Below the pieces are notes generated by a model. The model was not told where the DNA came from. It did not search any database and saw only the letters and a list, made by a program, of their open reading frames with translations. A DNA stretch of 45,541 nt, from contig JAIFNC010000168.1 in NCBI GenBank assembly GCA_020047935.1, forward strand, positions 1-45,541, written 5' to 3'. Positions 8,603-30,407 of the stretch are shown piece after piece. The position numbers and the translations under genes are program-made. Position 1 is the first letter of the stretch, and every line of letters begins with the position of its first letter. The stretch is from Bacteroidota bacterium. GTDB lineage: Bacteria > Bacteroidota > Bacteroidia > Bacteroidales > JAIFNC01.

Positions 8603-9115
8603 ATGATATACGAAGTACTTAGCGAAATAAAAGACCGACTAAACCAGCATTTCCGACTGCGATTTGGCCTGCCTGAAGACAAACTGTTTTTGTCGGGTTT
8701 GGTTGATGCCGGCGGTGCAGCAGCCATTGACAACGATTTGGTGGTTATGATGCCTATAAACATTCAAGAAGAAAAGCATGTGTATAATCGTCGAAATACA
8801 AACGAACCACCCTTTATTTCGCTTAATGTATTAGTACTAATTACCACCACTTTTAGCGGTAAAAATGCCGCCGAAGGATTGAAGTTTTTAACCGAAACGG
8901 TTAGCTTTTTCATGCAAAACAATGCCATGGACATTGAAGGAAACCGCATAGCTATTGAATACTATAACCTCGACTTGCAACTTCAAAATAACCTTTGGGC
9001 AAGCCTCGGAGCCAAATATGCTCCTTCGGTTATTTATCGTATAAGCTTAATTCGCATTGAAGAAGGCATGGCATCACTCGATATTAATCTTGCAAGCAAT
9101 TTCCCAACCACATAG
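8603..9115 (+). CDS. DUF4255 (Pvc16_N) protein: eCIS tail terminator/cap (Afp16-like)
   Basis: 170 aa. N-terminus MIYEVLSEIKDRLNQHF...DKLFLSGLVD...DLVVMMPINIQEEKHVYNRRN follows the DUF4255 pattern (..V.l.LvniqEe...rN). Confidence 0.75.
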   Translation: MIYEVLSEIKDRLNQHFRLRFGLPEDKLFLSGLVDAGGAAAIDNDLVVMMPINIQEEKHVYNRRNTNEPPFISLNVLVLITTTFSGKNAAEGLKFLTETVSFFMQNNAMDIEGNRIAIEYYNLDLQLQNNLWASLGAKYAPSVIYRISLIRIEEGMASLDINLASNFPTT

Positions 9116-9123
9116 CCTGAATT

Positions 9124-10149
9124 ATGAGAACCTATAGAAAATTGGCTGAAATAAATTTTTTTCACAAGTATTATGAATCAGGAATACTTGAAAGCACTGA
9201 TTTGGGTTTTTATAAAACCCCGGAAACCGAAAAATTGCTTGCCAACTATAGGTTAATGCTTAAAATTAAACCCGGAGTTATAGAACTTATTCAAGAATGC
9301 GAAGAAGAAGAAGAAGGACTTGAAGCATTTATTGAAATAGATAAAGAATTGAAATTCAGTATAGTAATTGAACAAAAAAACAAACAATTCTTTTCTTTTT
9401 CCGAATTGCCTTTTATTGATATGGGCAAAGAGGTTTTTTATTTCAGCAATAAAATAGTTAAAGAAAATAAGAAAAGTGCAGGTTTAGTTAAAGGTAAAGA
9501 AATTGGCGTTTCAGATTTGCATTGGTTACTGCCAAAATCGGTAGCCAAGATTGAAAATTTGGATTGGAAAGCACCAAAAACGCTTTCGTCTATAACAAAA
9601 GATAAAAATATAGTGTGTACAAGTTTGGATGATTTTGCTCAAATTGTACCAACCTTAGCCGATGGCTATTACGAACTTATTTCGGGCAAAAATACCGAAG
9701 CAAGTTTTGTGCTGTTTAAAGCTAAATACAGCGCTGCCGATATAGGATTGATTGAATTTTTTGTTGATACCGTTATGGCAAAAGCCATACATTCGGAGCC
9801 GGTGCAATTCGGTATTACCTTCGAAGCGCGCAAGTTGCCCTGGCAATATCAGGTTTTTGAGCGCTTCAACAGCATAAAGAATATTTTAATTGTCGACGAC
9901 AAAGAAGAAGTGGAATTTAAAGAATTAGCTGTCATTGAACAAGATGGCATAAAATCGAGAGTGTTTATTTCGAAAAAGCCGATTGCAATTACCGAAATAA
10001 CCAAAAAAGCATTTCGTATAATTTCGCCGGCAAATGGCAGAGCCGGAAAGGTTTGGGTTGAAAAGTTGCCCATCCCGAAGTTCAGCAATATTACCATGTC
10101 GGCAGAACCTGACAAAACAATGTTTTTCAAAGAATATGTGTATTTGTAA
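9124..10149 (+). CDS. Hypothetical protein between the eCIS cap and sheath genes
   Basis: 341-aa ORF with coding-like composition, packed between neighbours (gaps of 8 and 28 bp). Contains a CEEEEEGLEAF acidic patch. No motif recognised. Confidence 0.6.
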   Translation: MRTYRKLAEINFFHKYYESGILESTDLGFYKTPETEKLLANYRLMLKIKPGVIELIQECEEEEEGLEAFIEIDKELKFSIVIEQKNKQFFSFSELPFIDMGKEVFYFSNKIVKENKKSAGLVKGKEIGVSDLHWLLPKSVAKIENLDWKAPKTLSSITKDKNIVCTSLDDFAQIVPTLADGYYELISGKNTEASFVLFKAKYSAADIGLIEFFVDTVMAKAIHSEPVQFGITFEARKLPWQYQVFERFNSIKNILIVDDKEEVEFKELAVIEQDGIKSRVFISKKPIAITEITKKAFRIISPANGRAGKVWVEKLPIPKFSNITMSAEPDKTMFFKEYVYL

Positions 10150-10177
10150 ATTCGTTTAATAACTAAATATTAACGCT

Positions 10178-12067
10178 ATGGCAGATTATAAAACACCCGG
10201 AGTGTATGTGGAGGAAATCTCCAAATCTACCCCTTCAGCAGCACAGGTTGCAACGGCTATTCCAATTTTTATTGGCTATACCGAACGTGCGAGCAAATCG
10301 GGTACGGATATTAAGAACATGCCCACTTACATTAGTTCGTTGCTTGAGTTCAACGAATATTTTGGACAGGGCTACAAACCCGCAACTATCGAGGTTGTTC
10401 TGAATGAGAACAAAAACGTAGATTCGGTAAAATTCGACAAACAATACTATCTGTATGATAGTGTAAGAATGTTCTATGCCAATGGCGGTGGGCAGTGCTG
10501 CATTTTGTCGGTTGGAAACTATTCTGAAAAAATTTCTTTTGAAAAAATTTCTTCCGGTATTAAAATCAGCAAAAAAGAAAACTTGCCTACCCTAATTCTT
10601 TTGCCCGATGCCATGTTGTTGGAATCGAAAGATGAAGCGTATTCGTTGCAACAAGAGGCTTTATTGCTTTGTTTAAAACTGAAAGACCGCTTTACGGTGC
10701 TTGACGTATATCAAGGCTACAAAAACCTCGACGATATGGTTGACGTTATTGAACAATTCCGCTCGGGTATTGGTATTAATGCGCTGCAATTTGGTGCTGC
10801 CTACTATCCTTGGATTCAGACGCTTTACAAAGCTGAAGTATCTTACAAGAATGTGGTATTTACCGACCCTAAAGGCAAAAAAATTAACTTGGAAGACATT
10901 GTTCCGAATCCACAACCGGTGCTTAATTTCAACTCTGCAATAGCCGATTTTAAAGCGGTTAAACAATTTGTTGAAGCACAAGCCGGCTTAGAAACAAAGC
11001 TTAACCAATTCGATAAAAAACAAGCCAATACAAAAGCTGAAGTTGCTCATAAAATAGGCATTCTGAAAGCTGCCGGAATGGAATTGTACCAATTGCGCGA
11101 CAACACACTTACCAACCCGGTAGTAAAAAGCGAATTGCAACAAAAAACCAATTCGAACTCGGTATTTGCTGCATTAGTTCGCGGATTGTATGCACTCGAT
11201 TTAGCGGTTAAAGGCGGTGCCATTAATCCGAAATCGGAATTTTCGGACTTAAATTTGGCTGCAACGCAAGCCGAAGCTGAGGTTGCCGAAATAAAAGAAG
11301 AACCGGCTCAGGTTGAAGCTGCTCGCAAAGTACTGGATACCCTTATACAGAACTTCAAAAAATTTATGAGTTCGTTGGTATTGGATGCCGCCGAAATTGA
11401 AGACCAATTGGATAAAGCGGTTTATGAAAATGTGGCTTTATATAAAGTTGCTGTAAGTAAAATTTATCAAGAAGCCTCTAAACTTCCTCCAAGCGGCGCT
11501 ATTGCAGGCATTTACTCGCAAGTTGACGATAATCGAGGTGTTTGGAAAGCTCCGGCAAACGTAAGCCTTTCAAATACAGTTAAACCTTGGGTTGAAATTG
11601 ATAACGACCAACAAGAAAACTTAAATGTTGATCCGGTGGGCGGAAAATCAATCAATGCAATTCGTGCATTTCCGGGTCAGGGCAACTTGGTTTGGGGTGG
11701 CAGAACGTTGGCAGGCAACGACAGCGAATGGCGTTATGTTTCGGTTCGCAGGTTCTTTAATATGGCAGAAAAAACCCTAAAGCAGGCATCGGGTTGGGCA
11801 GTATTCGAACCCAACACCGAGATGACGTGGATTCGAATTCGTGCAATGATGAACAACTTCCTGATTAACCTCTGGAAAGCCGGTGCTATGATGGGTTCAA
11901 CCCCCGACGAAGCATTCTTTGTAAACGTTGGTTTAGGAACCACCATGACCCAAGAAGACATACTTGAAGGTAGATTGATTATTGAAGTTGGTATGGCTGT
12001 TGTACGACCAGCCGAATTCGTAATCATTAAATTTAGCCACAAATCTATTTCAGGAAGTAACGAATAG
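10178..12067 (+). CDS. Contractile tail sheath protein (Afp2-4 / Pvc2-like)
   Basis: 629 aa. Canonical sheath N-terminus MADYKTPGVYVEEI. C-terminal sheath domain GIYSQVDDNRGVWKAPANVSL...NAIRAFPGQGNLVWGGRTL...WRYVSVRRFFNMAEKTLKQASGWAVFEPN. Confidence 0.95.
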   Translation: MADYKTPGVYVEEISKSTPSAAQVATAIPIFIGYTERASKSGTDIKNMPTYISSLLEFNEYFGQGYKPATIEVVLNENKNVDSVKFDKQYYLYDSVRMFYANGGGQCCILSVGNYSEKISFEKISSGIKISKKENLPTLILLPDAMLLESKDEAYSLQQEALLLCLKLKDRFTVLDVYQGYKNLDDMVDVIEQFRSGIGINALQFGAAYYPWIQTLYKAEVSYKNVVFTDPKGKKINLEDIVPNPQPVLNFNSAIADFKAVKQFVEAQAGLETKLNQFDKKQANTKAEVAHKIGILKAAGMELYQLRDNTLTNPVVKSELQQKTNSNSVFAALVRGLYALDLAVKGGAINPKSEFSDLNLAATQAEAEVAEIKEEPAQVEAARKVLDTLIQNFKKFMSSLVLDAAEIEDQLDKAVYENVALYKVAVSKIYQEASKLPPSGAIAGIYSQVDDNRGVWKAPANVSLSNTVKPWVEIDNDQQENLNVDPVGGKSINAIRAFPGQGNLVWGGRTLAGNDSEWRYVSVRRFFNMAEKTLKQASGWAVFEPNTEMTWIRIRAMMNNFLINLWKAGAMMGSTPDEAFFVNVGLGTTMTQEDILEGRLIIEVGMAVVRPAEFVIIKFSHKSISGSNE

Positions 12068-12113: not shown

Positions 12114-12560
12114 ATGGCTGAAGCATATCCAATTCCGAAATTTCATTTCGAAGTAAGCTGGGCAAATGCAGCTAACGGCTCTATTGTTTGCTCTGAGGCA
12201 AGCGGACTAAACTCTTCCATCGCTTCAATTGAATACCGCGACGGTAAAAGCCCTCAATTTTATAACATCAAAAGCCCGGGTTTGCAAACTTTTAGTGATG
12301 TAGTACTTTCTAAAGCAATTTTCCAAGACGATGCCGACTTTCAGGCTTGGCACGATTTGGTGGCTACCGACCGCGATGCATTCCGCGACGTGGTAACCAT
12401 TGTGCTGAAAAATGAATTGGGCGAACCGGTACTTTCATGGGAATTGCAAGACGCTTGGGTTTCGAACTGGGAAATGCCCGACATGAACTCAACGGCAAAC
12501 GAAGTAGCGATTGAAAAAATTACCATTGTGTCGGAAAACATTATGGTTACTGCCGGTTAA
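12114..12560 (+). CDS. Inner tube protein (T4 gp19 / Afp1-like)
   Basis: 148 aa. N-terminus AYPIPKFHFEVSW and CSEASGL...IEYRDG are typical of the phage-tail-tube gp19 family. Confidence 0.9.
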   Translation: MAEAYPIPKFHFEVSWANAANGSIVCSEASGLNSSIASIEYRDGKSPQFYNIKSPGLQTFSDVVLSKAIFQDDADFQAWHDLVATDRDAFRDVVTIVLKNELGEPVLSWELQDAWVSNWEMPDMNSTANEVAIEKITIVSENIMVTAG

Positions 12561-12593
12561 TAAATTCAAACCGAACCTATTAACCTAAATTGA

Positions 12594-12663: not shown

Positions 12664-13197
12664 ATGCCACCTGAAGTAGACAAATACCCCTTACCCGGCT
12701 TTAGTTTTCGTGTCGATTTTTTGTTTAGTCAAACCAACGAATCGAAATATTTAGGTCCTGAAGAAGCTGCATTTATGGAAGTTAGCGGACTTAAAGCTTC
12801 GCTCGACCTGGAAGAGTACCCGGAAATGGGCTTTTTTGGTCAGCCAAGGTCGTTTATTACCGGTTTAAGGTTCGAAAAATTAATTCTAAAACGCGGTTTT
12901 ACGAGCAGTTCAAAAATTGCAGCATGGTTTAAAGACTGTATGTATAACCAAAAAACCAACCACATTTCGTTATTGGTTTCGCTTATTGGCACCGGCGCAT
13001 CGAACAAAGGGCGTCCTCTTGCCGTATGGCAGTTCTATGAAGCATTTCCGGTAAGTATCGAGTACAGCGGTTTTAATGCCATGGAATCGGGTTTTACTAT
13101 TGAAACACTCGAAATTAGGTACAGTTATTTTACTGCACTCGAAAAGAAAAAGAAAACAGCTCCGCCGCCAGCTAAAAAACCGGCGCCAAAAAAATAG
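12664..13197 (+). CDS. Second tube-family protein (Afp5-like) with basic Pro/Lys C-terminal tail
   Basis: 177 aa. YPLPGFSFRVDF...FMEVSGL parallels the N-terminus of the first tube protein. Ends EKKKKTAPPPAKKPAPKK. Confidence 0.85.
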   Translation: MPPEVDKYPLPGFSFRVDFLFSQTNESKYLGPEEAAFMEVSGLKASLDLEEYPEMGFFGQPRSFITGLRFEKLILKRGFTSSSKIAAWFKDCMYNQKTNHISLLVSLIGTGASNKGRPLAVWQFYEAFPVSIEYSGFNAMESGFTIETLEIRYSYFTALEKKKKTAPPPAKKPAPKK

Positions 13198-13251: not shown

Positions 13252-13434
13252 ATGCCGGTAGAAATAAGAGAACTTGTAATTAAAACAACCATTGACAATT
13301 CGGGAGGCGATTCAAGCGGATTGCCGGTGAACGATAAACAATTGAAAAAGCTTCTGAAAAACTTGAAAGAAGAAGTTTTAAAAGAATGCTTACTGGAAAT
13401 TGATAAACAATTTGAGCGTAAAAACCAACGCTAA
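13252..13434 (+). CDS. Small conserved eCIS protein (DUF5908-like)
   Basis: 60 aa. N-terminus MPVEIRELVIKTTI matches the characteristic start of this eCIS-associated family. Its stop overlaps the next start (TAATG). Confidence 0.65.
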   Translation: MPVEIRELVIKTTIDNSGGDSSGLPVNDKQLKKLLKNLKEEVLKECLLEIDKQFERKNQR

Positions 13435-14120: not shown

Positions 14121-15914
14121 ATGCCCGGTCCAAAACCATCAGGATTAGTTAATGTTAAGGTGCTTGCAGGAGGTTCCGAATTACCCGGAACGTTCCAAGT
14201 AAATCGTATTCAAATTACCAAAACACTTAACAAAGTTTCGTCGGCTACTATTCATTTTCTCGATGGAAACCCGTCGATTCAGAAATTTGAAATTAGCGAT
14301 AAAGCCGATTTGGAGCCCGGTGCCGAAATTGAAATTAAGGCAGGATACGACTCCGATTCAGAATCGTTATTTAAAGGAATAATTATTAAACACGGCATAA
14401 AAGTGCAAAGCGGAAGCACTTTTACCATTATTGAATGTAAGGACAAAGCCGTGCTTATGACCATTGAAAACCGAAGCGATATTTTTGAAAAGAAAAAAGA
14501 TTCGGAAATAATGCAAACCCTTATTTCGCGACACAGCGGAGTAAGTGCAAAAGTGGACGCAACCGACTACCAGCACCCGCAAATATTGCAATACAATGCT
14601 ACCGATTGGGACTTTGTAATGGCTCGCGCCGAGGCAAACAGCAAAGTGGTGTATACCTTGGATAATAAGGTTGGTGTAGTAACACCAAAAGTTGCTTCGC
14701 CTAAAATGACCTTGGAATTTGGAACTAATATAATTGATTTTGAAGCCAATATAAATGCCGATACTCAACTTTCGAAAGTGAAAGCAATTTCGTGGAATAT
14801 AAAATCGCAAGAAGTTGCGCAAAAAGAAGTGTCGTCGGCCGATTTTGAAGAAACCGGAAGTTTAAAATCGGCAGGACTTGCCGGAAAAGTTAAAACCGAC
14901 GGACAATTACTTTCGCACCCCGGAGCTTTGGATGTAGGCGAATTGGGCGATTGGGGAAAAGCCGTAATGCTCCGAAGTAAAATGGGCAAACTTACCGGAA
15001 CGGTTAAAGCCAATGGTTTTGCCGGTATTAACCCAAACGATACGCTGGAGTTAAAAGGCTTTGGCAAAAAATTCAACGGAAAAGTTTATGTTGCTTCTGT
15101 AGAACACAGCATTGATGCCGGCAAATGGTTTACTTCAATTAAGTTCGGTTTAAACCCCGAATTGCATGTGCGTAAATTCGACATTGGTTCGCAGCAAGCC
15201 TCGGGTTTGCTGCCTGCAGTACACGGATTGCAAATTGGAATTGTAAAGAAAATACACGAAGACCCCGACAACCAACACCGTGTGCAAGTTTCGCTGGTTT
15301 CGTTCGGCAGTTCAACCAACGTGTGGGCAAGGCGAGTGTTCCCCGATGCCGGCAAAGAGCGTGGTGTATATTGGATGCCCGAAATTGGCGACGAAGTAGT
15401 AATCGGTTTTATGAACGATGATGCTCGCTATCCGATAATTATTGGGAATTTGCACAGTTCAAAAAATAAACCGCCCTACGTAACCGACGCAAAAAATAAA
15501 GAAAAGGGTATTGTTACTCGTGAAAAATTAAAGTTGACTTTTAACGACGAAGATAAAATTACAACTTGGGAAACGCCTGCCAAACAGTCGATTGAAATTA
15601 ACGACAAGGAAGAGTCGATTGTAATTAAAGACAAGCAAGGTAATACTATTACCCTTAAAAAAGACTTGATTGAATTAAAGGGAATGGGCGAAATTAAAAT
15701 AACTGCTATGAAGGATGTTACCATTTCGGGGCAGAATATTAAAATAGATGCTAAATTGAATGCCGATATAGGTGCCACCAACATTAAAAACACGGCTAAA
15801 GCGCAATTTAAAGCAGCAGGAAATGCCGGAGCCGAAATTTCGTCGGGAGCACAAACGGTGGTAAAAGGTGGTGCCATGGTACAAATTCAAGGTGCATTGG
15901 TAAAAATAAATTAA
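14121..15914 (+). CDS. Spike/hub protein (gpD + gp5-OB / VgrG-like, Afp8-like)
   Basis: 597 aa. gp5-OB / Phage_base_V-like segment GIVKKIHEDPDNQHRVQVSL...VWARRVFPDAGKERGVYWMPEIGDEVVIGFMNDDARYPIIIGNLHS, followed by a beta-helix-like repeat tail. Confidence 0.9.
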   Translation: MPGPKPSGLVNVKVLAGGSELPGTFQVNRIQITKTLNKVSSATIHFLDGNPSIQKFEISDKADLEPGAEIEIKAGYDSDSESLFKGIIIKHGIKVQSGSTFTIIECKDKAVLMTIENRSDIFEKKKDSEIMQTLISRHSGVSAKVDATDYQHPQILQYNATDWDFVMARAEANSKVVYTLDNKVGVVTPKVASPKMTLEFGTNIIDFEANINADTQLSKVKAISWNIKSQEVAQKEVSSADFEETGSLKSAGLAGKVKTDGQLLSHPGALDVGELGDWGKAVMLRSKMGKLTGTVKANGFAGINPNDTLELKGFGKKFNGKVYVASVEHSIDAGKWFTSIKFGLNPELHVRKFDIGSQQASGLLPAVHGLQIGIVKKIHEDPDNQHRVQVSLVSFGSSTNVWARRVFPDAGKERGVYWMPEIGDEVVIGFMNDDARYPIIIGNLHSSKNKPPYVTDAKNKEKGIVTREKLKLTFNDEDKITTWETPAKQSIEINDKEESIVIKDKQGNTITLKKDLIELKGMGEIKITAMKDVTISGQNIKIDAKLNADIGATNIKNTAKAQFKAAGNAGAEISSGAQTVVKGGAMVQIQGALVKIN

Positions 15915-15925: not shown

Positions 15926-16225
15926 ATGCCTCCAGCCGCTCGATTAACCGATATGCATGTTTGCCCTATGGTAACTCCGGGTGTTCCGCCGGTTCCGCAT
16001 GTAGGCGGGCCGGTAGTAGGGCCCGGAATACCAACCGTACTTATAGGCGGAATGCCGGCTGCCGTACTGGGCGACAATGCCGTTTGCACCGGACCGCCCG
16101 ATACGATAATTAAAGGTTCGGCTACCGTATTAATTGGTGGTAAACCGGCAGCTCGAATGGGCGATTCTACAGCACACGGCGGATCGGTTGTGGCAGGTTT
16201 TCCGACAGTAATGATTGGAGGTTAG
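15926..16225 (+). CDS. PAAR-domain spike tip protein (Afp10-like)
   Basis: 99 aa. PAARLTDMHVCP...IGGMPAAVLGD...IGGKPAARMGDSTAHGG: three PAAR-type repeats. Confidence 0.9.
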   Translation: MPPAARLTDMHVCPMVTPGVPPVPHVGGPVVGPGIPTVLIGGMPAAVLGDNAVCTGPPDTIIKGSATVLIGGKPAARMGDSTAHGGSVVAGFPTVMIGG

Positions 16226-16238
16226 AAAAAATAAAGCT

Positions 16239-24137: not shown

Positions 24138-24761
24138 ATGAAAAAACTAATTCCCTTATTGTTTTTTGTGCTTTCGTTGCCGGGTTTTTCGCAAATACAA
24201 GTAGGAAAAGTGCTGTTGGACGAAGCCGAACTTAAATCGGTTCCAACGCTAACTTTCGATTTTGGGTTGCCTATAAACATAACCGGCCCTTATGCTTTTA
24301 TGAAAAGCGAAGAAATGTTTATTGAAAGCGGTTTGTATTTAACAACCGACCGTTATGTGTTCGATTTAAACGGCAATCGGTTTTCGCACCGAAGCATAGG
24401 CTTTAATATTCCGCTTAGGGTGGGCAAAATAATAAAAAATAAGTATTATATTGGCGGCGGAAATAATTTCAACTTCCCTATACATTACCGCCAATTCAAA
24501 TACGATGCGTTCAGTTTCAACAACAAGCAGAAGGTAGTTTCAGAGTTTTTTTCAGACCAAATTGTGAAATTTTACCCAAGTTTAGAACTGAATGCCGGAT
24601 TTAGTACACACGGAATTGGTCGGTTTTCAATTCGTGTTCAAATGCACTTTTTAGATTTTTTCAACCTTGGTTATACGGAAAACGGAGTATTACCCTACGA
24701 AAAAATTACTTGGACAAACCGCTATAAGCTTATTATCTTGTCCTATAATCCCGGCTTATAA
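24138..24761 (+). CDS. Signal-peptide protein, possible small outer-membrane beta-barrel, embedded in the eCIS operon
   Basis: 207 aa. Signal peptide MKKLIPLLFFVLSLPGFSQ. Alternating hydrophobic/aromatic beta-strand pattern throughout. No recognised eCIS motif. Confidence 0.5.
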   Translation: MKKLIPLLFFVLSLPGFSQIQVGKVLLDEAELKSVPTLTFDFGLPINITGPYAFMKSEEMFIESGLYLTTDRYVFDLNGNRFSHRSIGFNIPLRVGKIIKNKYYIGGGNNFNFPIHYRQFKYDAFSFNNKQKVVSEFFSDQIVKFYPSLELNAGFSTHGIGRFSIRVQMHFLDFFNLGYTENGVLPYEKITWTNRYKLIILSYNPGL

Positions 24762-24779: not shown

Positions 24780-25607
24780 ATGATTAATCGTTTAAAACTA
24801 AATCTTAAATTTTTAGCCGAAAAATCGGCAATTGATATTCAAAATAACATTGCCGAAAGCGTAAAGCACAAACTACCCGAAACTGCGCAGCAAATAATCG
24901 AGGATATTGGTATTCCAAACCATGCAACGCTTATAATTGACAAGCTGGAATTCGATTTGGGCGTTTTACCTGCCCAACACACTGCCGAAATATTTATGGA
25001 ACGCCTCACAGACAGTTTGCGTAAAGCATTGAAAAACATAGCCGAAAAGCAAATTCATGAAGGGGTAACAATTAGTAATACAGAAGCTTCGGAACATGAT
25101 GCTTATTTTTTTTATTTAGCAGAAGGGTATTTTCCGTGGTGGTATAAACTCGAAGCCGGTTTGGCTGCCTTGGCAAGTAAAATACAGAAACAGTTTGAAG
25201 TGAAATTGTTTGAAAAACTAAGTTCGAAAAGCCAAATAAACTTAATAAAACGACATTATTTTGCTATCGCACCTGAATTGCGGAAACCCTTTATTTTAAG
25301 TTTGGTGAGTGCATTTAAAGCTAAAAATTCAAACTCGGAAAACAGTAATACCCTAAACGAGTTTCAACGTTTTTATAATTATATTGAAGAAGAAAATACG
25401 GCAACCGGATTAACCGAATTGCTTAAAGCTATAGAAACCGGTTCCTTTTCGGTTGCCGGCAGAACCCAAAACAATGAGCTTGGAGAAGAATTAAAACCAA
25501 GAATTGACTTAAGAGCCGATTTTCAGACATATTGGGAGCAAATAACAAAACTAAATTCGAATAGAAGTAATGATGCAATAAAACTTAGCAATTTTCCGCC
25601 CGATTAA
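24780..25607 (+). CDS. Tape-measure-like protein, N-terminal fragment (gene interrupted by frame breaks)
   Basis: 275-aa ORF, helical composition, syntenic position of Afp14 (after the baseplate genes, before the ATPase). Coding continues in frame 2 (25589-25789, no start codon) and then in the original frame (from 25785). Confidence 0.5.
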   Translation: MINRLKLNLKFLAEKSAIDIQNNIAESVKHKLPETAQQIIEDIGIPNHATLIIDKLEFDLGVLPAQHTAEIFMERLTDSLRKALKNIAEKQIHEGVTISNTEASEHDAYFFYLAEGYFPWWYKLEAGLAALASKIQKQFEVKLFEKLSSKSQINLIKRHYFAIAPELRKPFILSLVSAFKAKNSNSENSNTLNEFQRFYNYIEEENTATGLTELLKAIETGSFSVAGRTQNNELGEELKPRIDLRADFQTYWEQITKLNSNRSNDAIKLSNFPPD

Positions 25608-25847
25608 AACAACAACACAGGTTCAAAAACGACAACGAACTGTTCAATTTCATTAACAATTTTCTGAATAATAACCACGCGAGCGCACTGGGAATTTTCT
25701 TAAAAAAACATATTAAAAGCGAACTTAAAAGCGATTTTACGCTTCGTGAACTGAATTTGTTGAGCAATTTCCAAGAAAAAATAAAGTAAGCCGGAGGTAT
25801 TACAAGGTTTTCTTGAAAAAACAGACCTTGATTTTCTAAAAAACGAA

Positions 25848-27530
25848 TTGCTAAATTCCAAATTACAAAATATACCGCATTTTTTTATAGAATTATTGGC
25901 GGAACGTTTTTTTGGCAAAGCATTGAAAACAGTATTCGACAGTAAAATTTCACCAAAAATAAGTTTAACAACCTATAATATTCTTTTTGCTGAAGTTTTT
26001 TTGGAAAGTGTTGCAAATAATAAGCTTGGTTATAATTGGGAAATTTTACCGATACAATTTTTAAAACCAACTACTTGGCAAGCCGGAATCAGCTCATTTG
26101 TTTCGAGCATGTTCGGAAATTTGGCACTTAAAAAAGCCGAATTTAATTTACAAGAAAAAGCTAAAAAAGACCGAAAACAATGGCTTACCGAAAATTTGTC
26201 GGTATATTTTTCGAACTTAAGCTATTTTCTTGAAAACGGTGCACTTCCTTGGAACAGTCCGTTCGAAAGCGTTGCCGAACTCGAAACATTTTATTGGAAC
26301 GAAAAACAACGAACCATACCGGCAACTGCCAGTTTTTTAAGCAATAGTTTTAGTAGTTATCACAGAATTAAGACGTTATATTTGGCTTTTTCCGAAGCAT
26401 TTGCTGATACTATATACAAACAAGTTTTCGAACAGGAAAAAGCTGATATTTCGGATATTATCGAAAAATCGGTTCGTAAAGAAAAAAGCTTGGATTTGCC
26501 TGCCGATTTTGGCGACTTTTTGCACCGAAGTGTATTTATGAAGCACCACGTTGAATTATTGGGTGCTATTGCAGGAATTATTGCAGAAAATTTAAACCTA
26601 AGCGCCAATAAATTAGCCGATAAAATTTACACTACACTTTTCGAAAACTATAAAAACGATATACTTACCATTTTAAGCGAAGCAATTCAAAAAGAAGAAG
26701 CCTTAAAATTGGATAAGGAAGCGTTGGAAAGCCTTTATAATCAGTCGTTTTTAAAAACAAAACCGGAAATAATTCAGTTATTGGTTGCCGAACTGAATAA
26801 AATACCGAAGGAAACAGCGTTGCGCGACCGAGTCGAAATATTGTATAAAGCAGTATTTGAAGGGAGAAAACCAAAATTCGATCAACTGATAGCACAAAGC
26901 AGCAAGGAAAACATGGTGCAAATAAGACAAAAGCTGCAAGTAGAAGAAATTGAAGATGTATACCAAAAAATAATTGAAGAAAAATTCGATTGGCAAAGCG
27001 GAAAAAAAAGTGGCGAACCAATTCATATAACCAATTCGGGCTTAGCTATTTTGCATTCGTTTTTGCCGCATTTGTTCAAACGGTTGGGGTATTTGCGCGC
27101 CGAAAAAGGAAAGAATTATTTTATTGATATTGCAGCACACGAACGAGCGGTTTTGGTTAGTCAATATTTGGTTTTTGGAGCACAACCGGTGGAAGAAAAT
27201 CAACTGGTTTTTAACAAACTGATGTGCGGATATTCGGTTGGGTTACCTATAAACACCGATTTGCAACTTACCGAAACCGAAATTGACGAATGCGAAACCT
27301 TGCTGAAATCGATTATAAAACACTGGGCAATTTTGGGTGAAGTATCAGTTGCAGCCTTGCGCGAATCATTTTTACAACGCAACGGAATGATAGTTTACGA
27401 CAAAGAAAACGTGAACTTGAAAGTTGAACAAAAAGGGATAGATATTTTAGTATCGAAGTTGCCCTGGACATTTGGCACAATACGCTTTTCGTGGAACGAA
27501 TACCTGATTTTTGTTGAATGGTACGCCTGA
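25848..27530 (+). CDS. Tape-measure-like protein, C-terminal fragment
   Basis: 560 aa from a TTG at 25848; the frame is open from 25785. Highly helical. The C-terminal block LPWTFGTIRFSWNEYLIFVEW resembles the conserved C-terminus of eCIS tape-measure proteins (recollection, not searched). Confidence 0.5.
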   Translation: MLNSKLQNIPHFFIELLAERFFGKALKTVFDSKISPKISLTTYNILFAEVFLESVANNKLGYNWEILPIQFLKPTTWQAGISSFVSSMFGNLALKKAEFNLQEKAKKDRKQWLTENLSVYFSNLSYFLENGALPWNSPFESVAELETFYWNEKQRTIPATASFLSNSFSSYHRIKTLYLAFSEAFADTIYKQVFEQEKADISDIIEKSVRKEKSLDLPADFGDFLHRSVFMKHHVELLGAIAGIIAENLNLSANKLADKIYTTLFENYKNDILTILSEAIQKEEALKLDKEALESLYNQSFLKTKPEIIQLLVAELNKIPKETALRDRVEILYKAVFEGRKPKFDQLIAQSSKENMVQIRQKLQVEEIEDVYQKIIEEKFDWQSGKKSGEPIHITNSGLAILHSFLPHLFKRLGYLRAEKGKNYFIDIAAHERAVLVSQYLVFGAQPVEENQLVFNKLMCGYSVGLPINTDLQLTETEIDECETLLKSIIKHWAILGEVSVAALRESFLQRNGMIVYDKENVNLKVEQKGIDILVSKLPWTFGTIRFSWNEYLIFVEWYA

Positions 27531-27566
27531 AAAGCTTAAAAATACTTACTTAAGAAACGAACGAAC

Positions 27567-29057
27567 ATGAGTGGGAAAAATCAACAAAACGACAACCAAG
27601 CAGCGAGTCAAAGTCGCGCTGCTGCTCACTTGTTTAACCAACTGAATAAAGAAAAAACTGCGGACGAAACCGAAGTTTCGAACCTGCATGCCGAACCCGA
27701 AGTAGCGCAGGATGCAAGCAGCGGAAAAGGCTTACCTGCCAATTTGCAAACCAAAATGGAAGGCGCTTTCGGTACCTCGTTTAATGAATTGGAGGTTAAA
27801 ACAAATTCGGTTCAGGCGCAAGAAATTGGTGCGCATGCTTTTGCGCAAGATAATGAAATACATTTTGCCCCCGGAAAATACGACCCCGAAACCACGGGCG
27901 GACAAAGGCTTATTGGGCACGAGTTGGCACATATTGTTCAACAAAAACAAGGTAAAGTTGAACCTAACTTTGAAGGCAACAACTTATTGGGAAATTACGA
28001 ACCCGGCTTGGAAAACGAAGCCGACCGTTTGGGACAAATGGCAGCCAAAGGGCAAGATACCGGCGTAAGTTTAGGCACCGAATCGGCTACCGTTAATGCA
28101 CCGGCGCAATTCTTTTTTGGCGATTTAATGAAATTAGCCGAATCGGGAATGAGTGCTATTGAATCGCTTACCGGCGGCGATGAAGGGGAGAAAGAAGCAG
28201 AGGAAGAAGAATCGACTTTCGATTTCATAAAAAATAGCCTTGAGGCAGTAACCGGTATGGCCGATGAAGGAAAAGAAGAAGAAGCTGCAGCCGGTGGCGA
28301 TGCCGAAGCTGCGGAAGGTGAAGAAGAAGGAGGAGGTTCGCTTTTCGACATGGCTCGCAGCGGGGTAGGCGCTATTGATTCGTTTTTCGGTGGCAAAGGC
28401 GAAGACGGCGAAGCGTCGTCGGCGGCAGATACTGCTACCGGATTAATTGATATGGGCGAAAGTGCTTTCAATATGTTTTCCGGCGGCAATGAGGATGCAG
28501 ATGCAAGCGAAGAGCAAAAAGAGGAAACACCTGCCAACGAGGAGGCCGCAACCAACGAAGAAGCTCCTGCCAATGAGGCTGCCGAAAATGAAGCAAATGA
28601 AGGTGCCGATACCATAGCCGAAAATGAAGCAGGCGAGGAGGAAGAAGCGCCGGCAGAAGAAATGAGTTTCTTGGACATGGTACGCGAAGATTTTGAGTTT
28701 GAAGAGGAGGGAACTGAGGAAGAAATTATAGAAGAAGAAATTTTGATGGAGGAGGAAACCGTTATTGAAGGTGGTCCCGGAACCGGAATTAAGAATAATG
28801 AAAACGACGGAAATTATGTTCCGCTTGAATATGATGAAAGCCAACCGTTGTTTGATGATGAACGTGAAAATGAAGGAACTACCGTTCCACTCGAAAACGA
28901 CCCGAATATGCCACTTTTCGACGATGAATTGCCCGGAATGGAAACTGAAGACGAAATGTTTTACATGGACGTAGAACTCGATTTGGCTATTGACGAGGCT
29001 ATGGGGGCAGTAGAATGGGTTGATATTTTGGCGGAAAATATAGAATGGGTTGATTAA
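27567..29057 (+). CDS. DUF4157 (HExxH metallopeptidase-like) protein with hyper-acidic repeat-containing C-terminal region
   Basis: 496 aa. DUF4157 core LPANLQTKMEGAFGTSFNELEVKTNS..AQEIGAHAFAQDNEIHFAPGKYDP...GQRLIGHELAHIVQQ, with HELAH at 27918-27932. The last ~300 aa are strongly Glu/Asp-rich with internal repeats. Confidence 0.85.
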   Translation: MSGKNQQNDNQAASQSRAAAHLFNQLNKEKTADETEVSNLHAEPEVAQDASSGKGLPANLQTKMEGAFGTSFNELEVKTNSVQAQEIGAHAFAQDNEIHFAPGKYDPETTGGQRLIGHELAHIVQQKQGKVEPNFEGNNLLGNYEPGLENEADRLGQMAAKGQDTGVSLGTESATVNAPAQFFFGDLMKLAESGMSAIESLTGGDEGEKEAEEEESTFDFIKNSLEAVTGMADEGKEEEAAAGGDAEAAEGEEEGGGSLFDMARSGVGAIDSFFGGKGEDGEASSAADTATGLIDMGESAFNMFSGGNEDADASEEQKEETPANEEAATNEEAPANEAAENEANEGADTIAENEAGEEEEAPAEEMSFLDMVREDFEFEEEGTEEEIIEEEILMEEETVIEGGPGTGIKNNENDGNYVPLEYDESQPLFDDERENEGTTVPLENDPNMPLFDDELPGMETEDEMFYMDVELDLAIDEAMGAVEWVDILAENIEWVD

Positions 29058-29072
29058 TAAAGCATTTATTGA

Positions 29073-30407
29073 ATGAAAAAGAACGCTTTAAGTATTGAAC
29101 GCGAACTAAAATGGCTTGAATTGTTGCTTGCATTTCGGTTCGAATGTTACAAGCAAAATAGGCGTTCGATGGAGGTTATTAAACAATTGCCTCCTAATTT
29201 AACCAAAGACGATTCGGTTTTTGCTAATTTTGTTAAACAGCACCAACTAAATGTAATTGAACGACTTGCACTTATAATGACCTTGGCGCCGCATGTTCGA
29301 CCTCAGATTTACGAACTGTTTCTTAAAAATCAGTCGAAGGAATCGGCAGGAAATTCGGAATTTGGCGGCTGGATTGGCAAAGCGCACGGCGGATTTTTGC
29401 CTACCATTGAAACGCTGGCTTTTGTAGCTGGCGGAGCTAATTTGGCAATTCGGTTTTCGCTGGTAGATTTGTTTACTCCCGACCATAAATTTATAAAAAA
29501 CGATATAATTTCGATAATTCATGCCGAAGACCATGAGCCTTTTTTTAGCGGATTTATGTCGCTTTCGCCTAGTTTAATTGAGCTTTTTACTGCCGGAAAA
29601 GAATCGAAACCGGTTTTTAGTACCAAATTTCCGGCAAAACTAATTAAAACCGATTTAAGTTGGGACGATTTAGTGATTGACGAAAACGTAGAAAACGAAG
29701 TGCTTCACATAACCAACTGGATAAAAAATAAAGACCAAATATACCAGCAATGGGGGCAGCAAGGCGTAATAAAACCGGGCTATAAGGCGTTGTTTCACGG
29801 GCCGCCCGGTACAGGCAAAAGCTTTACCGCCGGTTTAATTGGCAAAGCAACCGGCAAGGATGTATACCGAGTCGATTTGTCGATGGTTGTTTCCAAATGG
29901 GTAGGCGAAACCGAAAAAAACTTAGCACGTATTTTCGATTCGGCTGAAAATAAAGACTGGATTTTGTTTTTTGATGAAGCCGACTCGCTTTTCGGTAAAC
30001 GAACCAATACACAAAGCTCGCAGGAGCGGTATGCAAACCAAGAAGTTTCGTACCTTTTGCAACGGGTTGAAGATATTAACAGTACCGTTATTTTAGCTTC
30101 GAACTTAAAAGGAAATATGGACGAAGCTTTTTTGCGAAGGTTTCATTCAATTATCTATTTTCCGCTGCCTAAAGCAAAGCAACGGTTGCAAATGTGGGAA
30201 AATTATTTGGGCAAACGTTTCAATATGGATGCTGAAATTGATTTAGCTGCCATTTCGGAAGAATACGAAGTTACCGGAGCAAGCATAGTGAATATTTTGA
30301 AATACTGCGCAATAAAATCGGTTGAAAGACCGGACAAAAAAATTATGAAAGACGATTTAGTATTTGGTATTCGACGCGAAATAATGAAAGAAGGCAAGTT
30401 TTCCTAA
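29073..30407 (+). CDS. eCIS AAA+ ATPase (Afp15-like)
   Basis: 444 aa. Walker A GPPGTGKS, Walker B ILFFDEADSLF, second region of homology ILASNLKGNMDEAFLRRF. Preceded by an N-terminal domain of ~220 aa. Confidence 0.9.
   Translation: MKKNALSIERELKWLELLLAFRFECYKQNRRSMEVIKQLPPNLTKDDSVFANFVKQHQLNVIERLALIMTLAPHVRPQIYELFLKNQSKESAGNSEFGGWIGKAHGGFLPTIETLAFVAGGANLAIRFSLVDLFTPDHKFIKNDIISIIHAEDHEPFFSGFMSLSPSLIELFTAGKESKPVFSTKFPAKLIKTDLSWDDLVIDENVENEVLHITNWIKNKDQIYQQWGQQGVIKPGYKALFHGPPGTGKSFTAGLIGKATGKDVYRVDLSMVVSKWVGETEKNLARIFDSAENKDWILFFDEADSLFGKRTNTQSSQERYANQEVSYLLQRVEDINSTVILASNLKGNMDEAFLRRFHSIIYFPLPKAKQRLQMWENYLGKRFNMDAEIDLAAISEEYEVTGASIVNILKYCAIKSVERPDKKIMKDDLVFGIRREIMKEGKFS

What the first reader, a model, noticed from the sequence alone, without database searches (positions are those of the whole stretch)
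8603..30407. Complete contractile injection system (eCIS / T6SS-iv-like) locus without any phage head genes
Seen in the translations, in one uninterrupted co-directional block:
- DUF4255 cap.
- Sheath (MADYKTPGVYVEEI...).
- Two gp19-type tube paralogs.
- A MPVEIRELVIK small protein.
- A LysM tube initiator.
- A gpD/gp5-OB spike.
- PAAR.
- gp25.
- A 1260-aa Baseplate_J protein.
- A 902-aa second wedge protein.
- A fibre-like protein.
- A tape-measure candidate.
- A DUF4157 HExxH protein.
- An AAA+ ATPase.

The DUF4255, DUF4157 and AAA+ ATPase genes are the established markers that separate eCIS (Afp/PVC/MAC/AlgoCIS/T6SS-iv) from prophage tails and R-type tailocins. No capsid, portal, terminase or integrase is present in the window. 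The gene order (cap first, PAAR before gp25) and the accessory content differ from the Afp/PVC archetype. This looks like an uncharacterised Bacteroidota member.
Basis: partly seen in the sequence, partly recalled or inferred. Interest (0 to 1): 0.8.

Follow-up and report, generated by a model that had tools for sequence, protein, structure and literature searches.

The report
AlgoCIS-type contractile injection system locus
This uncultured Bacteroidales contig encodes a full phage-tail-like injection machine of the already described AlgoCIS/MAC/T6SS-iv group, so it is an ordinary new member, apart from unusual cell-envelope genes travelling with it, including a unique pyrophosphatase-OmpA fusion.

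Summary
The gene set is real. Profile and solved-structure searches recover cap, cap adaptor, sheath, two tube proteins, plug, LysM tube initiator, spike, PAAR, gp25, Cis11, a short Cis13-like fibre, Cis12, tape measure, a DUF4157 protein and an AAA ATPase. No head, packaging or integration genes were found. The closest solved system is AlgoCIS, then the Anabaena tCIS. The gene order is the normal one for this group and for Bacteroidales injection systems.

Corrections:
- The fibre-like gene lies before the 902-aa Cis12, not after it. The 207-aa gene after Cis12 has a signal peptide and may be an outer-membrane barrel.
- The tape-measure gene is broken here by 76- and 74-nt deletions. Three other assemblies of the same organism lack them, and one shows the whole 966-aa gene.
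- The co-directional block spans 3902-33571.

Unexpected: a diverged membrane pyrophosphatase fused to an OmpA peptidoglycan-binding domain. It exists only in this lineage and its closest relative, where it sits between the tape-measure and DUF4157 genes. Whether the machine is released or membrane-anchored cannot be decided from sequence.

Verdict: new member of a known kind, moderate interest.

The parts
3902..4456 (+). 184-aa predicted lipoprotein, first gene of the conserved upstream envelope block
   Evidence: The N-terminus MKGILLILVGSLFFSSC has a lipobox. It has no Pfam or PHROG family. The same position is occupied upstream of the GH18 gene in L090 (184 aa) and L091 (189 aa). That rests on position only; sequence similarity was not tested.
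4466..6280 (+). GH18-domain protein with a signal peptide and C-terminal transmembrane helices
   Evidence: Pfam Glyco_hydro_18 5e-43. TM-like segments lie at 510-528 and 546-564. The DGVNINFE motif is identical in the L090 and L091 orthologues. Homologues lie within 10 kb of Cis11 in 6 of the 81 related loci from other organisms, and inside the cluster in L034.
6313..7200 (+). Degenerate PP2C-like protein with a C-terminal transmembrane anchor
   Evidence: It has no direct Pfam hit. Its remote homologues (E 1e-8 to 1e-14) carry Pfam PP2C/PP2C_2. By eye, SAEIES and VGNNNLF sit where PP2C has DGMGG and GDSR, and orthologues show the same losses. This is not an alignment result. A TM segment lies at 277-295. 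It is syntenic in L003, L090 and L091.
7197..8243 (+). TPR-repeat predicted lipoprotein
   Evidence: Pfam TPR_1 9e-43. The N-terminus ends ...VFAAC. The L003 orthologue is 43% identical and sits at the same position. L090 has a 349-aa gene there.
8245..8589 (+). 114-aa protein with two predicted transmembrane helices, directly upstream of the cap gene
   Evidence: TM-like segments lie at 44-62 and 90-108. The L003 orthologue at the same position is 73% identical. 115-aa genes sit at the same place in L002 and L090.
8603..9115 (+). Cap / tail terminator (Cis16A, Afp16 N-domain type)
   Evidence: Pfam Pvc16_N 1.1e-16. At 170 aa it is short, like the 197-aa Alg16A (PMC8894135).
9124..10149 (+). 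Cap adaptor (Cis16B)
   Evidence: A profile of six orthologues hits tCIS All3326 at 5.6e-22, SalCis16b cap at 7e-14 and the AlgoCIS cap adaptor 7adz_1A at 9e-10.
10178..12067 (+). Single contractile sheath protein (Cis2)
   Evidence: Pfam Phage_sheath_1C 5e-13. PDB hits: AlgoCIS 7adz 1.6e-125, tCIS 7b5h 1.5e-113, PVC/Afp 1e-53 to 1e-63, T4 gp18 about 2e-6.
12114..12560 (+). Inner tube protein (Cis1)
   Evidence: Pfam Phage_T4_gp19 3.3e-30.
12664..13197 (+). Second tube-fold protein (Cis5-like) with a Lys/Pro-rich tail
   Evidence: Pfam Phage_T4_gp19 1.3e-22. Sequence.
13252..13434 (+). Plug (Cis6, Afp6/Alg6 type)
   Evidence: Pfam DUF5908 3.1e-14. Calling the DUF5908 gene the Alg6 plug rests on its size, its position before the LysM tube initiator as in AlgoCIS, and my reading that DUF5908 is the Afp6 family. 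No search here hit Alg6 directly. The plug's function is described in PMC8894135.
13434..14114 (+). Tube initiator with a C-terminal LysM-like domain (Cis7)
   Evidence: Pfam CIS_tube 1.2e-41. It aligns over its full length with Alg7 'LysM domain-containing protein' 7aeb_M at 7e-54.
14121..15914 (+). Spike (Cis8, gp27/gp5 VgrG-like)
   Evidence: Pfam Phage_base_V 5.5e-21 and Phage_GPD 3.7e-7.
15926..16225 (+). PAAR spike tip (Cis10)
   Evidence: Pfam PAAR_motif 7.2e-26.
16215..16646 (+). gp25-like sheath initiator (Cis9); the real start is probably the ATG at 16239
   Evidence: Pfam GPW_gp25 1.5e-22. The orthologues in L002 and L003 are 135 aa.
16671..20453 (+). Baseplate wedge Cis11 (gp6-like) with a long N-terminal extension
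   Evidence: PDB hits: All3317 4.5e-96, Alg11 1.6e-95, Afp11 3.6e-26. At 1260 aa it is about twice the length of the 607-aa Afp11. At least 567 relatives were found among GTDB species genomes.
20470..21165 (+). Short Cis13-like fibre protein
   Evidence: A profile hits the Bdellovibrio fibre bd2133 at 4.8e-10. Its N-terminal 40 residues hit tCIS Cis13 (All3316) at 3e-5. It lies directly after Cis11 in 37 of the 81 related loci from other organisms, including Cardinium hertigii. No TM helix was predicted.
21186..21365 (+). Conserved 59-aa protein of unknown role
   Evidence: tblastn finds it at the same position in nine related organisms (ten locus hits, L002 and L007 being the same contig), including L010, L014, L015 and L046. 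It has no family hit.
21396..24104 (+). Baseplate wedge Cis12 (gp7-like)
   Evidence: PDB hits: Alg12 2.9e-83, All3315 1.2e-67, Pvc12 1.5e-23, Afp12 5.7e-16.
24138..24761 (+). Exported 207-aa protein, possibly a small outer-membrane beta-barrel; found only in this sub-clade
   Evidence: It has a signal-peptide-like N-terminus. Only 4 clusters exist among 5.8 billion. L003 has an orthologue. The AF2 model is all-beta but low confidence (pLDDT 60.5). All top Foldseek matches are small OM barrels, but they are weak (E>=0.02, TM<=0.5).
24780..27530 (+). Tape-measure protein (Cis14), broken in this contig by 76-nt and 74-nt deletions after 25603 and 25784
   Evidence: Pfam CIS_TMP matches 24780-25607 at 3e-22 and 25848-27530 at 1e-74. 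The deletions are defined against L004, L005 and L088. The intact gene in L088 is 966 aa.
27567..29057 (+). DUF4157 (HExxH) protein with a very acidic C-terminal region; candidate tube-lumen cargo
   Evidence: Pfam eCIS_core 9.5e-23 at residues 56-129. Overall composition is 26% Asp+Glu. The domain layout matches AlgoCIS Cgo1/Cgo2 (PMC8894135). Outside the DUF4157 domain it differs from the L007 proteins.
29073..30407 (+). AAA+ ATPase (Cis15)
   Evidence: Pfam AAA 5e-27 at residues 240-365. The orthologues that follow the tape-measure gene in L003, L071 and L065 are 57%, 45% and 50% identical.
30455..33571 (+). Diverged membrane-pyrophosphatase domain (14 TM-like segments predicted) fused to CarboxypepD_reg-like and OmpA peptidoglycan-binding domains
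   Evidence: Pfam H_PPase 2e-125 plus OmpA 1.6e-11. Only two such fusions exist in 5.8 billion clusters. In L007 it lies between the tape-measure and DUF4157 genes. It scores below every NCBIfam equivalog cut-off. Several PPi/Mg-site residues are replaced.

Best explanation
The locus encodes a phage-tail-derived contractile injection system of the AlgoCIS type. That is clade Ib of the Afp/PVC-like systems, the group that also holds MACs and T6SS-iv.

Inferred mechanism, by homology with the solved AlgoCIS and tCIS structures:
- A baseplate is built from the spike (Cis8 with a PAAR tip), the plug (Cis6), the LysM tube initiator (Cis7), gp25 (Cis9) and Cis11/Cis12 wedges, with short Cis13-like fibres attached.
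- It nucleates a tube of Cis1/Cis5 whose length is set by the 966-aa tape-measure protein.
- A single-species sheath polymerises around the tube.
- The distal end is closed by the cap plus cap adaptor.
- The AAA+ ATPase assists assembly and/or loading.
- The DUF4157 protein, with its N-terminal leader and acidic tail, is the likely cargo carried in the tube lumen.
- Sheath contraction drives the tube and spike into a target.

Shown here: the gene identities, their order, and their conservation in relatives.

Inferred only: assembly, cargo loading, and the mode of deployment. Release as a free extracellular particle is the most likely mode, as shown for AlgoCIS, but I rate it at only about 60%. 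The conserved envelope genes on both flanks could serve release or anchoring.
For: - All core families were recovered by Pfam.
- End-to-end or long matches to AlgoCIS chains: sheath 1.6e-125, Alg11 1.6e-95, Alg12 2.9e-83, Alg7 7e-54, and the cap adaptor by profile at 9e-10, with tCIS All3326 at 5.6e-22.
- The plug family DUF5908 is present.
- The DUF4157 protein has the layout described for the AlgoCIS cargo proteins Cgo1/Cgo2, which fill the tube lumen (PMC8894135).
- The gene order is colinear with related loci from many Bacteroidota. At least 567 Cis11 relatives exist among GTDB species genomes.
- An intact 966-aa tape-measure gene is present in an independent assembly of the same organism.
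- There are no head or packaging genes, no tRNA, and only partial weak phage sheath matches.
- None of the cytoplasmic structural proteins has a predicted TM helix. The fibre lacks the TM helix that anchors tCIS (PMC8894136).
Against: - Nothing shows that particles are made.
- The tape-measure gene is broken in the window itself.
- The closest relative (L002/L007) has no AAA ATPase gene within the 33 kb read.
- Mode of action cannot be read from sequence. In clade Ib, released and membrane-anchored systems are close relatives.
- Seven genes for exported or membrane proteins travel with this cluster. AlgoCIS is not described as having them.
- I built no sheath or Afp8/Afp11 tree, so the clade assignment rests on the nearest solved structures.
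Confidence: 0.8

Rival explanations
1. The system is a membrane-anchored, T6SS-iv-like CIS. The sub-clade-specific envelope proteins would tether or guide the baseplate at the cell envelope, so the system fires from inside the cell on contact. These proteins are the pyrophosphatase-derived inner-membrane protein with a periplasmic peptidoglycan-binding OmpA domain, the exported 207-aa barrel-like protein, the TPR lipoprotein, and the small TM proteins.
For: - The PPase-OmpA fusion exists only in the two lineages that carry this CIS sub-type. It stays within the cluster although its position differs: after the ATPase here, and between the tape-measure and DUF4157 genes in L007.
- Its enzyme domain has lost about half of the otherwise invariant positions, including PPi/Mg-site residues. 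The periplasmic part is the best-conserved region.
- An exported protein is encoded between Cis12 and the tape-measure gene in the window, L002, L003 and L089.
- The five upstream envelope genes are syntenic in relatives.
- From general knowledge: peptidoglycan-binding OmpA-type domains anchor canonical T6SS membrane complexes (TagL and extended TssL).
- T6SS-iv belongs to the same clade.
Against: - Only two lineages carry the fusion, and they are fairly close (Cis11 71% identical). Conserved neighbourhood could therefore be inherited synteny.
- No contact between any of these proteins and the baseplate is shown.
- The closest structurally solved relative is a released eCIS.
- The Cis13-like fibre has no TM helix.
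- Envelope genes could equally serve lysis or release.
- The barrel assignment of the 207-aa protein rests on a low-confidence model.
Confidence: 0.17
2. The locus is a decaying, non-functional remnant. The split tape-measure gene in the window would be real, and the system could no longer set tube length or assemble.
For: In the window the tape-measure reading frame is interrupted by two deletions. The nearby protease genes are also split.
Against: - Three other assemblies of the same organism are identical around the site and lack both deletions. They are L004 (NCBI GCA_003456315.1), L005 (JGI 3300033508) and L088 (JGI 3300001765). L088 carries the whole 966-aa gene; in L004 and L005 the gene runs off the contig end.
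- The window has at least five deletions of 63-76 nt in 21 kb relative to L088, at 99.95-100% identity elsewhere. That pattern points to an assembly artefact in this contig.
- All other genes are full length and conserved with relatives.
Confidence: 0.04
3. The locus is the tail module of a prophage, or an R-type tailocin.
For: Sheath, tube, gp25, Baseplate_J and spike families are shared with contractile phage tails.
Against: - No capsid, portal, terminase, integrase or tRNA is present in 45.5 kb, and both flanks hold ordinary chromosomal genes.
- None appears in the roughly 36 kb read around the locus on the relative's 2.49-Mb contig.
- The CIS-specific families Pvc16_N, CIS_tube, CIS_TMP, DUF5908 and eCIS_core are present, as is the AAA ATPase.
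- Phage sheaths match only the C-terminal third, at 124 bits or less, against 423 bits for AlgoCIS.
Confidence: 0.02

Closest known systems
AlgoCIS of Algoriphagus machipongonensis (clade Ib eCIS; PDB 7ADZ/7AEB; PMC8894135)
   Same: - It gives the best solved-structure match for the sheath, Cis12 and the LysM tube initiator, and is level with the tCIS for Cis11.
- It has the same distinctive parts: a short cap plus a separate cap adaptor, a plug gene, a single long sheath, extended Cis11/Cis12, DUF4157 proteins and an AAA ATPase.
   Different: - Here the fibre is a 231-aa Cis13-like protein placed between Cis11 and Cis12. No match to an AlgoCIS fibre chain was found.
- Here an exported 207-aa protein lies between Cis12 and the tape-measure gene.
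- There is one DUF4157 gene instead of two.
- A PPase-OmpA gene and a five-gene envelope block travel with the cluster.
Anabaena thylakoid-anchored CIS (tCIS; PDB 7B5H/7B5I; PMC8894136)
   Same: - It is the second-best structural match overall, and the best for Cis11 (4.5e-96) and the cap adaptor (5.6e-22).
- A Cis13 gene lies between Cis11 and Cis12, and the N-terminal baseplate-binding segment is shared.
   Different: - tCIS Cis13 carries the C-terminal TM helix that anchors the particle. The protein here has none.
- No Cis19 crown homologue was seen.
- Cis12 is 902 aa here against 1335 aa in the tCIS.
T6SS-iv of Amoebophilus asiaticus and Cardinium, and MACs of Pseudoalteromonas luteoviolacea
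   Same: - They belong to the same clade as AlgoCIS according to PMC8894135.
- The Cardinium hertigii locus L063 has Cis11 (27% identical) followed by the same 231-aa fibre-like gene (41% identical).
   Different: - Their inner-membrane anchoring and ordered arrays are ultrastructural traits that cannot be read from this sequence.
- No closer sequence relationship to Cardinium than to many free-living Bacteroidota was seen.
Bacteroidales injection systems (BIS; PMC7394362) and dbeCIS/eCIStem loci
   Same: They come from the same order of bacteria. The clusters are delimited in the same way, from DUF4255 to the FtsH-like ATPase, with DUF4157 next to it.
   Different: I made no direct sequence comparison with BIS. 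The closest GTDB species genome has only 40% Cis11 identity (L008), so this lineage is not one of the characterised gut BIS.
Membrane-bound pyrophosphatases (Na+/H+-PPase, Pfam PF03030)
   Same: - The first 720 residues of 30455-33571 align over the whole M-PPase fold.
- They keep DNAKK, GDPxKD, GNTT, EDD and DxxGDNxxD.
   Different: - Identity to any ordinary M-PPase is at most 36%.
- The score of 410 bits is far below the 894-bit NCBIfam cut-off.
- Only 109 of 230 invariant columns are kept.
- The Lys of the ADLVGK motif is replaced by Asn/His, the Asp of DAYGP by Asn/Ser, and DNAGG has become DQALA/DHAIA.
- A roughly 310-residue C-terminal extension ends in an OmpA domain, which no other M-PPase among the listed hits has.

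Membership tests
Afp/PVC-like contractile injection systems (eCIS operon definition of Geller et al. 2021, PMC8213781) | At least ten core genes in close proximity | tested here: met
   Homologues of Afp1/5, 2, 6, 7, 8, 9, 10, 11, 12, 13-like, 14, 15 and 16 lie in one co-directional block. The criterion is quoted.
Afp/PVC-like contractile injection systems (eCIS operon definition of Geller et al. 2021, PMC8213781) | [quoted passage not shown] | tested here: met
   Pvc16_N 1e-16, CIS_TMP 1e-74, Afp12/Pvc12/Alg12 homology.
Afp/PVC-like contractile injection systems (eCIS operon definition of Geller et al. 2021, PMC8213781) | Not a bacteriophage: no head, packaging or integration genes | tested here: met
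   No such Pfam or PHROG family was hit in the ORFs scanned across the window. There is no tRNA. None appears in the roughly 36 kb read around the relative's locus. Sequence beyond the contig ends could not be examined.
AlgoCIS-type / clade Ib CIS (PMC8894135) | Short single-domain cap plus a separate cap adaptor (Cis16A + Cis16B) | tested here: met
   A 170-aa Pvc16_N protein is followed by a 341-aa protein whose profile hits All3326, SalCis16b and the AlgoCIS cap adaptor.
AlgoCIS-type / clade Ib CIS (PMC8894135) | Plug protein (Alg6/Afp6 homologue) | tested here: met
   The 60-aa protein matches DUF5908 at 3e-14 and sits before the LysM tube initiator. Equating DUF5908 with Alg6 rests on size, position and my reading of the family. 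No search here hit Alg6 directly.
AlgoCIS-type / clade Ib CIS (PMC8894135) | Cis11 extension that forms a cage around the spike | tested here: inconclusive
   Cis11 is 1260 aa (Afp11 is 607) and is homologous to Alg11 and All3317. Its N-terminal extension is conserved in relatives. Whether a cage forms cannot be seen from sequence.
AlgoCIS-type / clade Ib CIS (PMC8894135) | Placement of the sheath in clade Ib of the dbeCIS phylogeny | not tested
   I built no tree because the reference set (MAC, Amoebophilus, dbeCIS) was not available. Only the ranking of solved structures is known: AlgoCIS > tCIS > SalCIS > PVC/Afp.
AlgoCIS-type / clade Ib CIS (PMC8894135) | Release of free particles (eCIS mode of action) | not testable with these tools
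   This needs EM or cryo-ET of the organism.
T6SS-iv (Amoebophilus type) | Baseplate attached to the inner membrane; ordered intracellular arrays | not testable with these tools
   These are ultrastructural traits. The molecular anchor is not named in the two clade papers read here.
Thylakoid/membrane-anchored tCIS (PMC8894136) | Cis13 with a C-terminal transmembrane helix, and a Cis12 membrane-contact extension | tested here: not met
   The 231-aa Cis13-like protein has no hydrophobic segment. Cis12 is 902 aa against 1335 aa for All3315.
Canonical T6SS (subtypes i-iii) | TssB/TssC sheath pair, TssJLM or TssNOPQR membrane complex, TssK, ClpV | tested here: not met
   None of these families was hit. 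The locus instead has a single phage-type sheath, a LysM tube initiator, a tape-measure protein and a DUF4255 cap.
Membrane pyrophosphatase (functional Na+/H+-PPase), for gene 30455-33571 | Score above the NCBIfam equivalog cut-off and a complete PPi/Mg-binding residue set | tested here: not met
   The best model scores 410 bits against a cut-off of 894. The motif Lys is Asn/His, the Asp of DAYGP is Asn/Ser, and DNAGG is degenerate. The two orthologues differ from each other at these sites.

The most novel reading that the evidence does not exclude
This Bacteroidales sub-clade may have recruited its own envelope module for its CIS. The centrepiece would be a duplicated membrane pyrophosphatase that has lost catalytic residues and gained a periplasmic peptidoglycan-binding OmpA domain. 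The other parts would be an exported barrel-like protein encoded inside the structural operon and a conserved block of GH18, pseudo-PP2C, TPR lipoprotein and small TM protein. Together they would form a trans-envelope anchor or exit site for the machine. That would be a new, independently evolved membrane complex for a phage-tail-like injector, built from an ion pump scaffold.
Probability: 0.15. Interest if true: 0.8.

Novelty: new member of a known kind. Interest (0 to 1): 0.4.

Why it matters
The core finding adds one more uncultured Bacteroidales lineage to a group that already has hundreds of catalogued loci and several atomic structures. It does not change what is known.

Two things make it worth a note.
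- In clade Ib, released and membrane-anchored machines are close relatives, and what decides the mode is an open question. A sub-clade that carries a peptidoglycan-binding inner-membrane protein and an exported protein inside the cluster is a concrete place to look for such determinants.
- A membrane pyrophosphatase turned into what looks like a non-catalytic, OmpA-tipped scaffold is unusual. I found only two in 5.8 billion protein clusters. It would interest people working on M-PPase evolution even if it has nothing to do with the CIS.

A practical point also follows. The public contig carries short deletions that break the tape-measure gene and a protease gene, so annotation-based surveys would score this locus as defective.

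Tried and rejected
- **Sigma-70 promoter and intrinsic terminator scans** over 2500-14000 and 24000-36500 gave counts at shuffle level. They say nothing about operon limits, and Bacteroidota promoters differ from the scanned consensus.
- **First genome-contig scan** with the single Cis11 protein found nothing. An 18-sequence alignment was too divergent to give patterns. A 9-sequence alignment worked.
- **Exact-protein look-ups** of the 275-aa tape-measure fragment and of the 132-aa ORF 41629-42027 found nothing. For the fragment this fits other assemblies having the unbroken gene.
- **Pfam LysM** was not detected in Cis7 even at E<=5. The LysM call rests on homology to Alg7 and on weak LysM PDB hits.
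- **PDB search of the 207-aa protein** gave nothing. Its AF2 model is low confidence (pLDDT 60.5), and the fold matches are only suggestive.
- **Programmed frameshift or readthrough** as an explanation for the split tape-measure gene was rejected. The breaks are 76- and 74-nt deletions that are absent from three other assemblies.
- **CesT-like chaperone gene (33646-34035, minus strand) and the genes at 34356-36140** as part of the system were rejected. They are not conserved next to any related locus. The 405-aa protein matches a candidate defence family.
- **Rfam and tRNA scans** found nothing.

Full report
**Source.** The window is the complete 45,541-bp contig of an NCBI 'MAG TPA: Bacteroidales bacterium'. 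Cis11 carries locus tag DCQ31_04155. Other assemblies hold the same organism:
- NCBI GCA_003456315.1;
- JGI metagenomes 3300001765, 3300033507 and 3300033508;
- Logan SRR6486366.

**Checking the observation.** All ORFs of the + strand block were scanned against Pfam.
- Baseplate_J is only a weak hit for the 1260-aa protein. However, that protein matches the solved Cis11 chains of the Anabaena tCIS (4.5e-96) and AlgoCIS (1.6e-95).
- The 902-aa protein has no Pfam family but matches Alg12 at 2.9e-83.
- Pfam LysM is not detected in the tube initiator. The protein nevertheless aligns end to end with the AlgoCIS 'LysM domain-containing protein' Alg7 (7e-54).
- No head, portal, terminase or integrase family is hit anywhere, including by PHROGs on the unassigned ORFs.
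- There is no tRNA and no Rfam family.

1. The 341-aa gene between cap and sheath (9124-10149) is the cap adaptor. A profile of six orthologues hits tCIS All3326 (5.6e-22), SalCis16b (7e-14) and the AlgoCIS cap adaptor (9e-10).
2. The fibre-like gene is the 231-aa ORF at 20470-21165, between Cis11 and Cis12.
   - Its profile hits Bdellovibrio fibre repeats (bd2133, 4.8e-10).
   - Its first 40 residues hit tCIS Cis13/All3316 (3e-5).
   - It follows Cis11 in 37 of the 81 related loci from other organisms, including Cardinium hertigii.
3. The ORF after Cis12 (24138-24761) is not a fibre.
   - It has a signal-peptide-like N-terminus.
   - Only four clusters exist in 5.8 billion.
   - Its AF2 model is all-beta but low confidence. 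The best fold matches are all small outer-membrane barrels, though weak.
4. A conserved 59-aa gene lies at 21186-21365.

**The tape-measure gene.**
- In the window it reads as a 275-aa ORF, a frame-shifted middle piece and a 560-aa ORF.
- Alignment with two other assemblies that are otherwise identical shows that the window lacks 76 nt after 25603 and 74 nt after 25784.
- A third assembly, JGI contig MIS_1001121 (L088), carries an uninterrupted 966-aa CIS_TMP gene.
- Against that contig the window has at least five deletions of 63-76 nt in 21 kb, at 99.95-100% identity elsewhere. Two of them split a 1057-aa T9SS-sorted protease.
- I read these as assembly artefacts of this contig, or at most a minor variant. 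The organism's locus is complete, but the sequence as given is not.

**Extent of the locus.**
- Genes from 3902 to 33571 are all on the + strand, with gaps of at most 103 nt.
- The five genes upstream of the cap all encode predicted exported or membrane proteins:
  - a 184-aa lipoprotein;
  - a GH18 protein with C-terminal TM helices;
  - a 295-aa TM-anchored protein;
  - a TPR lipoprotein;
  - a 114-aa two-TM protein.
- The block is syntenic in L090, whose PP2C-like protein is 61% identical.
- Part of it is syntenic in L003, directly upstream of the cap; there the 114-aa protein is 73% identical.
- The triad of lipoprotein-sized ORF, GH18 and 295-aa protein recurs in L091, whose PP2C-like protein is 28% identical.
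- The 295-aa protein is a diverged PP2C. Its remote homologues carry Pfam PP2C. By eye, it and its orthologues lack the metal-binding Asp motifs.
- GH18 homologues occur near Cis11 in six of the 81 loci from other organisms, and inside the cluster in L034.

**The unexpected gene.** ORF 30455-33571 starts 47 nt after the ATPase gene. It fuses a full-length membrane-pyrophosphatase domain to CarboxypepD_reg-like and OmpA domains.
- Among 5.8 billion protein clusters only it and its orthologue in the closest relative have this architecture. Every other hit is an ordinary ~730-aa M-PPase at 36% identity or less.
- In that relative (Cis11 71% identical, 2.49-Mb contig) the order is tape measure, PPase-OmpA, then two DUF4157 genes. 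The fusion therefore sits inside the CIS cluster even though its position differs from that in the window.
- The enzyme domain keeps DNAKK, GDPxKD, GNTT and the DxxGDNxxD block.
- It has lost about half of the otherwise invariant columns. The losses include the motif Lys (Asn/His), the Asp of DAYGP (Asn/Ser) and DNAGG. The two orthologues differ from each other at those sites.
- It scores 410 bits against an 894-bit NCBIfam cut-off.
- The OmpA end is the best-conserved part.
- From general knowledge, both termini of M-PPases face the periplasm or lumen. A periplasmic peptidoglycan-binding C-terminus is therefore topologically sensible.
- I found no paper that links pyrophosphatases to CIS.

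**Relatives and classification.**
- The solved-structure ranking for the sheath is AlgoCIS (423 bits), then tCIS (384), SalCIS (367) and PVC/Afp (138-216). T4 and pyocin sheaths score about 30 bits.
- Phage genomes match only the C-terminal third of the sheath.
- A scan of GTDB species genomes with a Cis11 alignment found at least 567 relatives. Most of the 80 listed are Bacteroidota, with Pseudomonadota, Ignavibacteriota and others. The closest is only 40% identical.
- These loci share the order cap, adaptor, sheath, tube, tube, plug, Cis7, spike, PAAR, gp25, Cis11, (Cis13), Cis12, tape measure, ATPase, DUF4157.
- AlgoCIS was assigned to clade Ib together with MACs and T6SS-iv. Its cap adaptor, plug and cage were reported as conserved in that group, and its DUF4157 proteins Cgo1/Cgo2 fill the tube lumen (PMC8894135).
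- BIS clusters of gut Bacteroidales are delimited from DUF4255 to the ATPase (PMC7394362).
- The operon criteria of Geller et al. are met (PMC8213781).

**Mechanism.**
- By homology, the locus should build a baseplate-nucleated particle whose length is set by the tape-measure protein, with a cap and a single-sheath tube.
- The 496-aa DUF4157 protein has an N-terminal low-complexity leader, an HELAH domain and a tail that is up to 48% Asp+Glu per 50 residues. It is the likely lumen cargo. Only its DUF4157 domain is shared with the two L007 proteins, as expected for variable effectors.
- The fibre lacks the TM helix that anchors tCIS.
- Deployment as a released particle is the default reading.
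- Seven envelope genes co-travel with the locus, so an anchored or envelope-assisted mode remains possible. I put that at about one in six.

**Verdict.** The locus is a new, uncharacterised member of a well-described kind. The interest lies in the accessory envelope genes, not in the core.

Noticed in passing
window 30455-33571 (orthologue at L007:10001-13336): A diverged membrane pyrophosphatase is fused to CarboxypepD_reg-like and OmpA peptidoglycan-binding domains. Only two such proteins exist in 5.8 billion clusters, and both lie in or next to this CIS cluster. Several PPi/Mg-site residues are replaced.
   Followed up: yes
window 25603/25604, 25784/25785, 38205/38206, 38436/38437, ~39469: The contig lacks segments of 76, 74, 68, 68 and about 63 nt that are present in an otherwise 99.95-100% identical JGI contig (L088). 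The first two break the tape-measure gene. The next two split a 1057-aa protease into 36368-38218 and 38458-39426. These are probably assembly artefacts.
   Followed up: yes
window 3902-8589: A five-gene block of predicted envelope proteins lies upstream of the cap. It comprises a lipoprotein, a GH18 with an invariant DGVNINFE motif and C-terminal TM helices, a degenerate TM-anchored PP2C-like protein, a TPR lipoprotein and a two-TM 114-aa protein. It is conserved in synteny with the CIS in relatives, and its role is unknown.
   Followed up: partly
window 39478-40221 and 40248-41612: A second trypsin-like, T9SS-sorted protease paralogue is also split into two ORFs near where its paralogue carries the catalytic His region. 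This may be another deletion, but the comparison contig ends at window 40183, so it could not be checked.
   Followed up: no
window 34356-36140: Two genes (175 and 405 aa) lie in a low-GC stretch (0.30). The 405-aa protein matches the PADLOC candidate defence family PDC-S11 (2e-10). They are not conserved next to related CIS loci.
   Followed up: partly
window 33646-34035 (minus strand): A CesT_Tir_1 type III-secretion-chaperone-like gene (3.9e-45) is convergent with the PPase-OmpA gene. It is present in the same organism's other assembly but absent from all related loci. A chaperone role for a CIS effector is possible but unsupported.
   Followed up: partly
L002/L007 (ENA ERZ25074695, 2.49-Mb contig, 1517340-1553144): The closest relative has a longer tape-measure protein (1183 aa against 966) and two DUF4157 genes (668 and 759 aa). 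No AAA ATPase gene lies within the roughly 36 kb read. A 2074-aa Ser/Thr-kinase/GAF/PAS/histidine-kinase gene follows the cargo genes.
   Followed up: partly
window 126-3085 (minus strand): An ECF sigma factor gene (2537-3085) is followed by a single-TM protein (1972-2532). Its position and single TM suggest an anti-sigma factor, but that was not tested. Two signal-peptide proteins follow. This cassette is divergent from the CIS block across an 817-nt gap and could be a regulator of the block.
   Followed up: no
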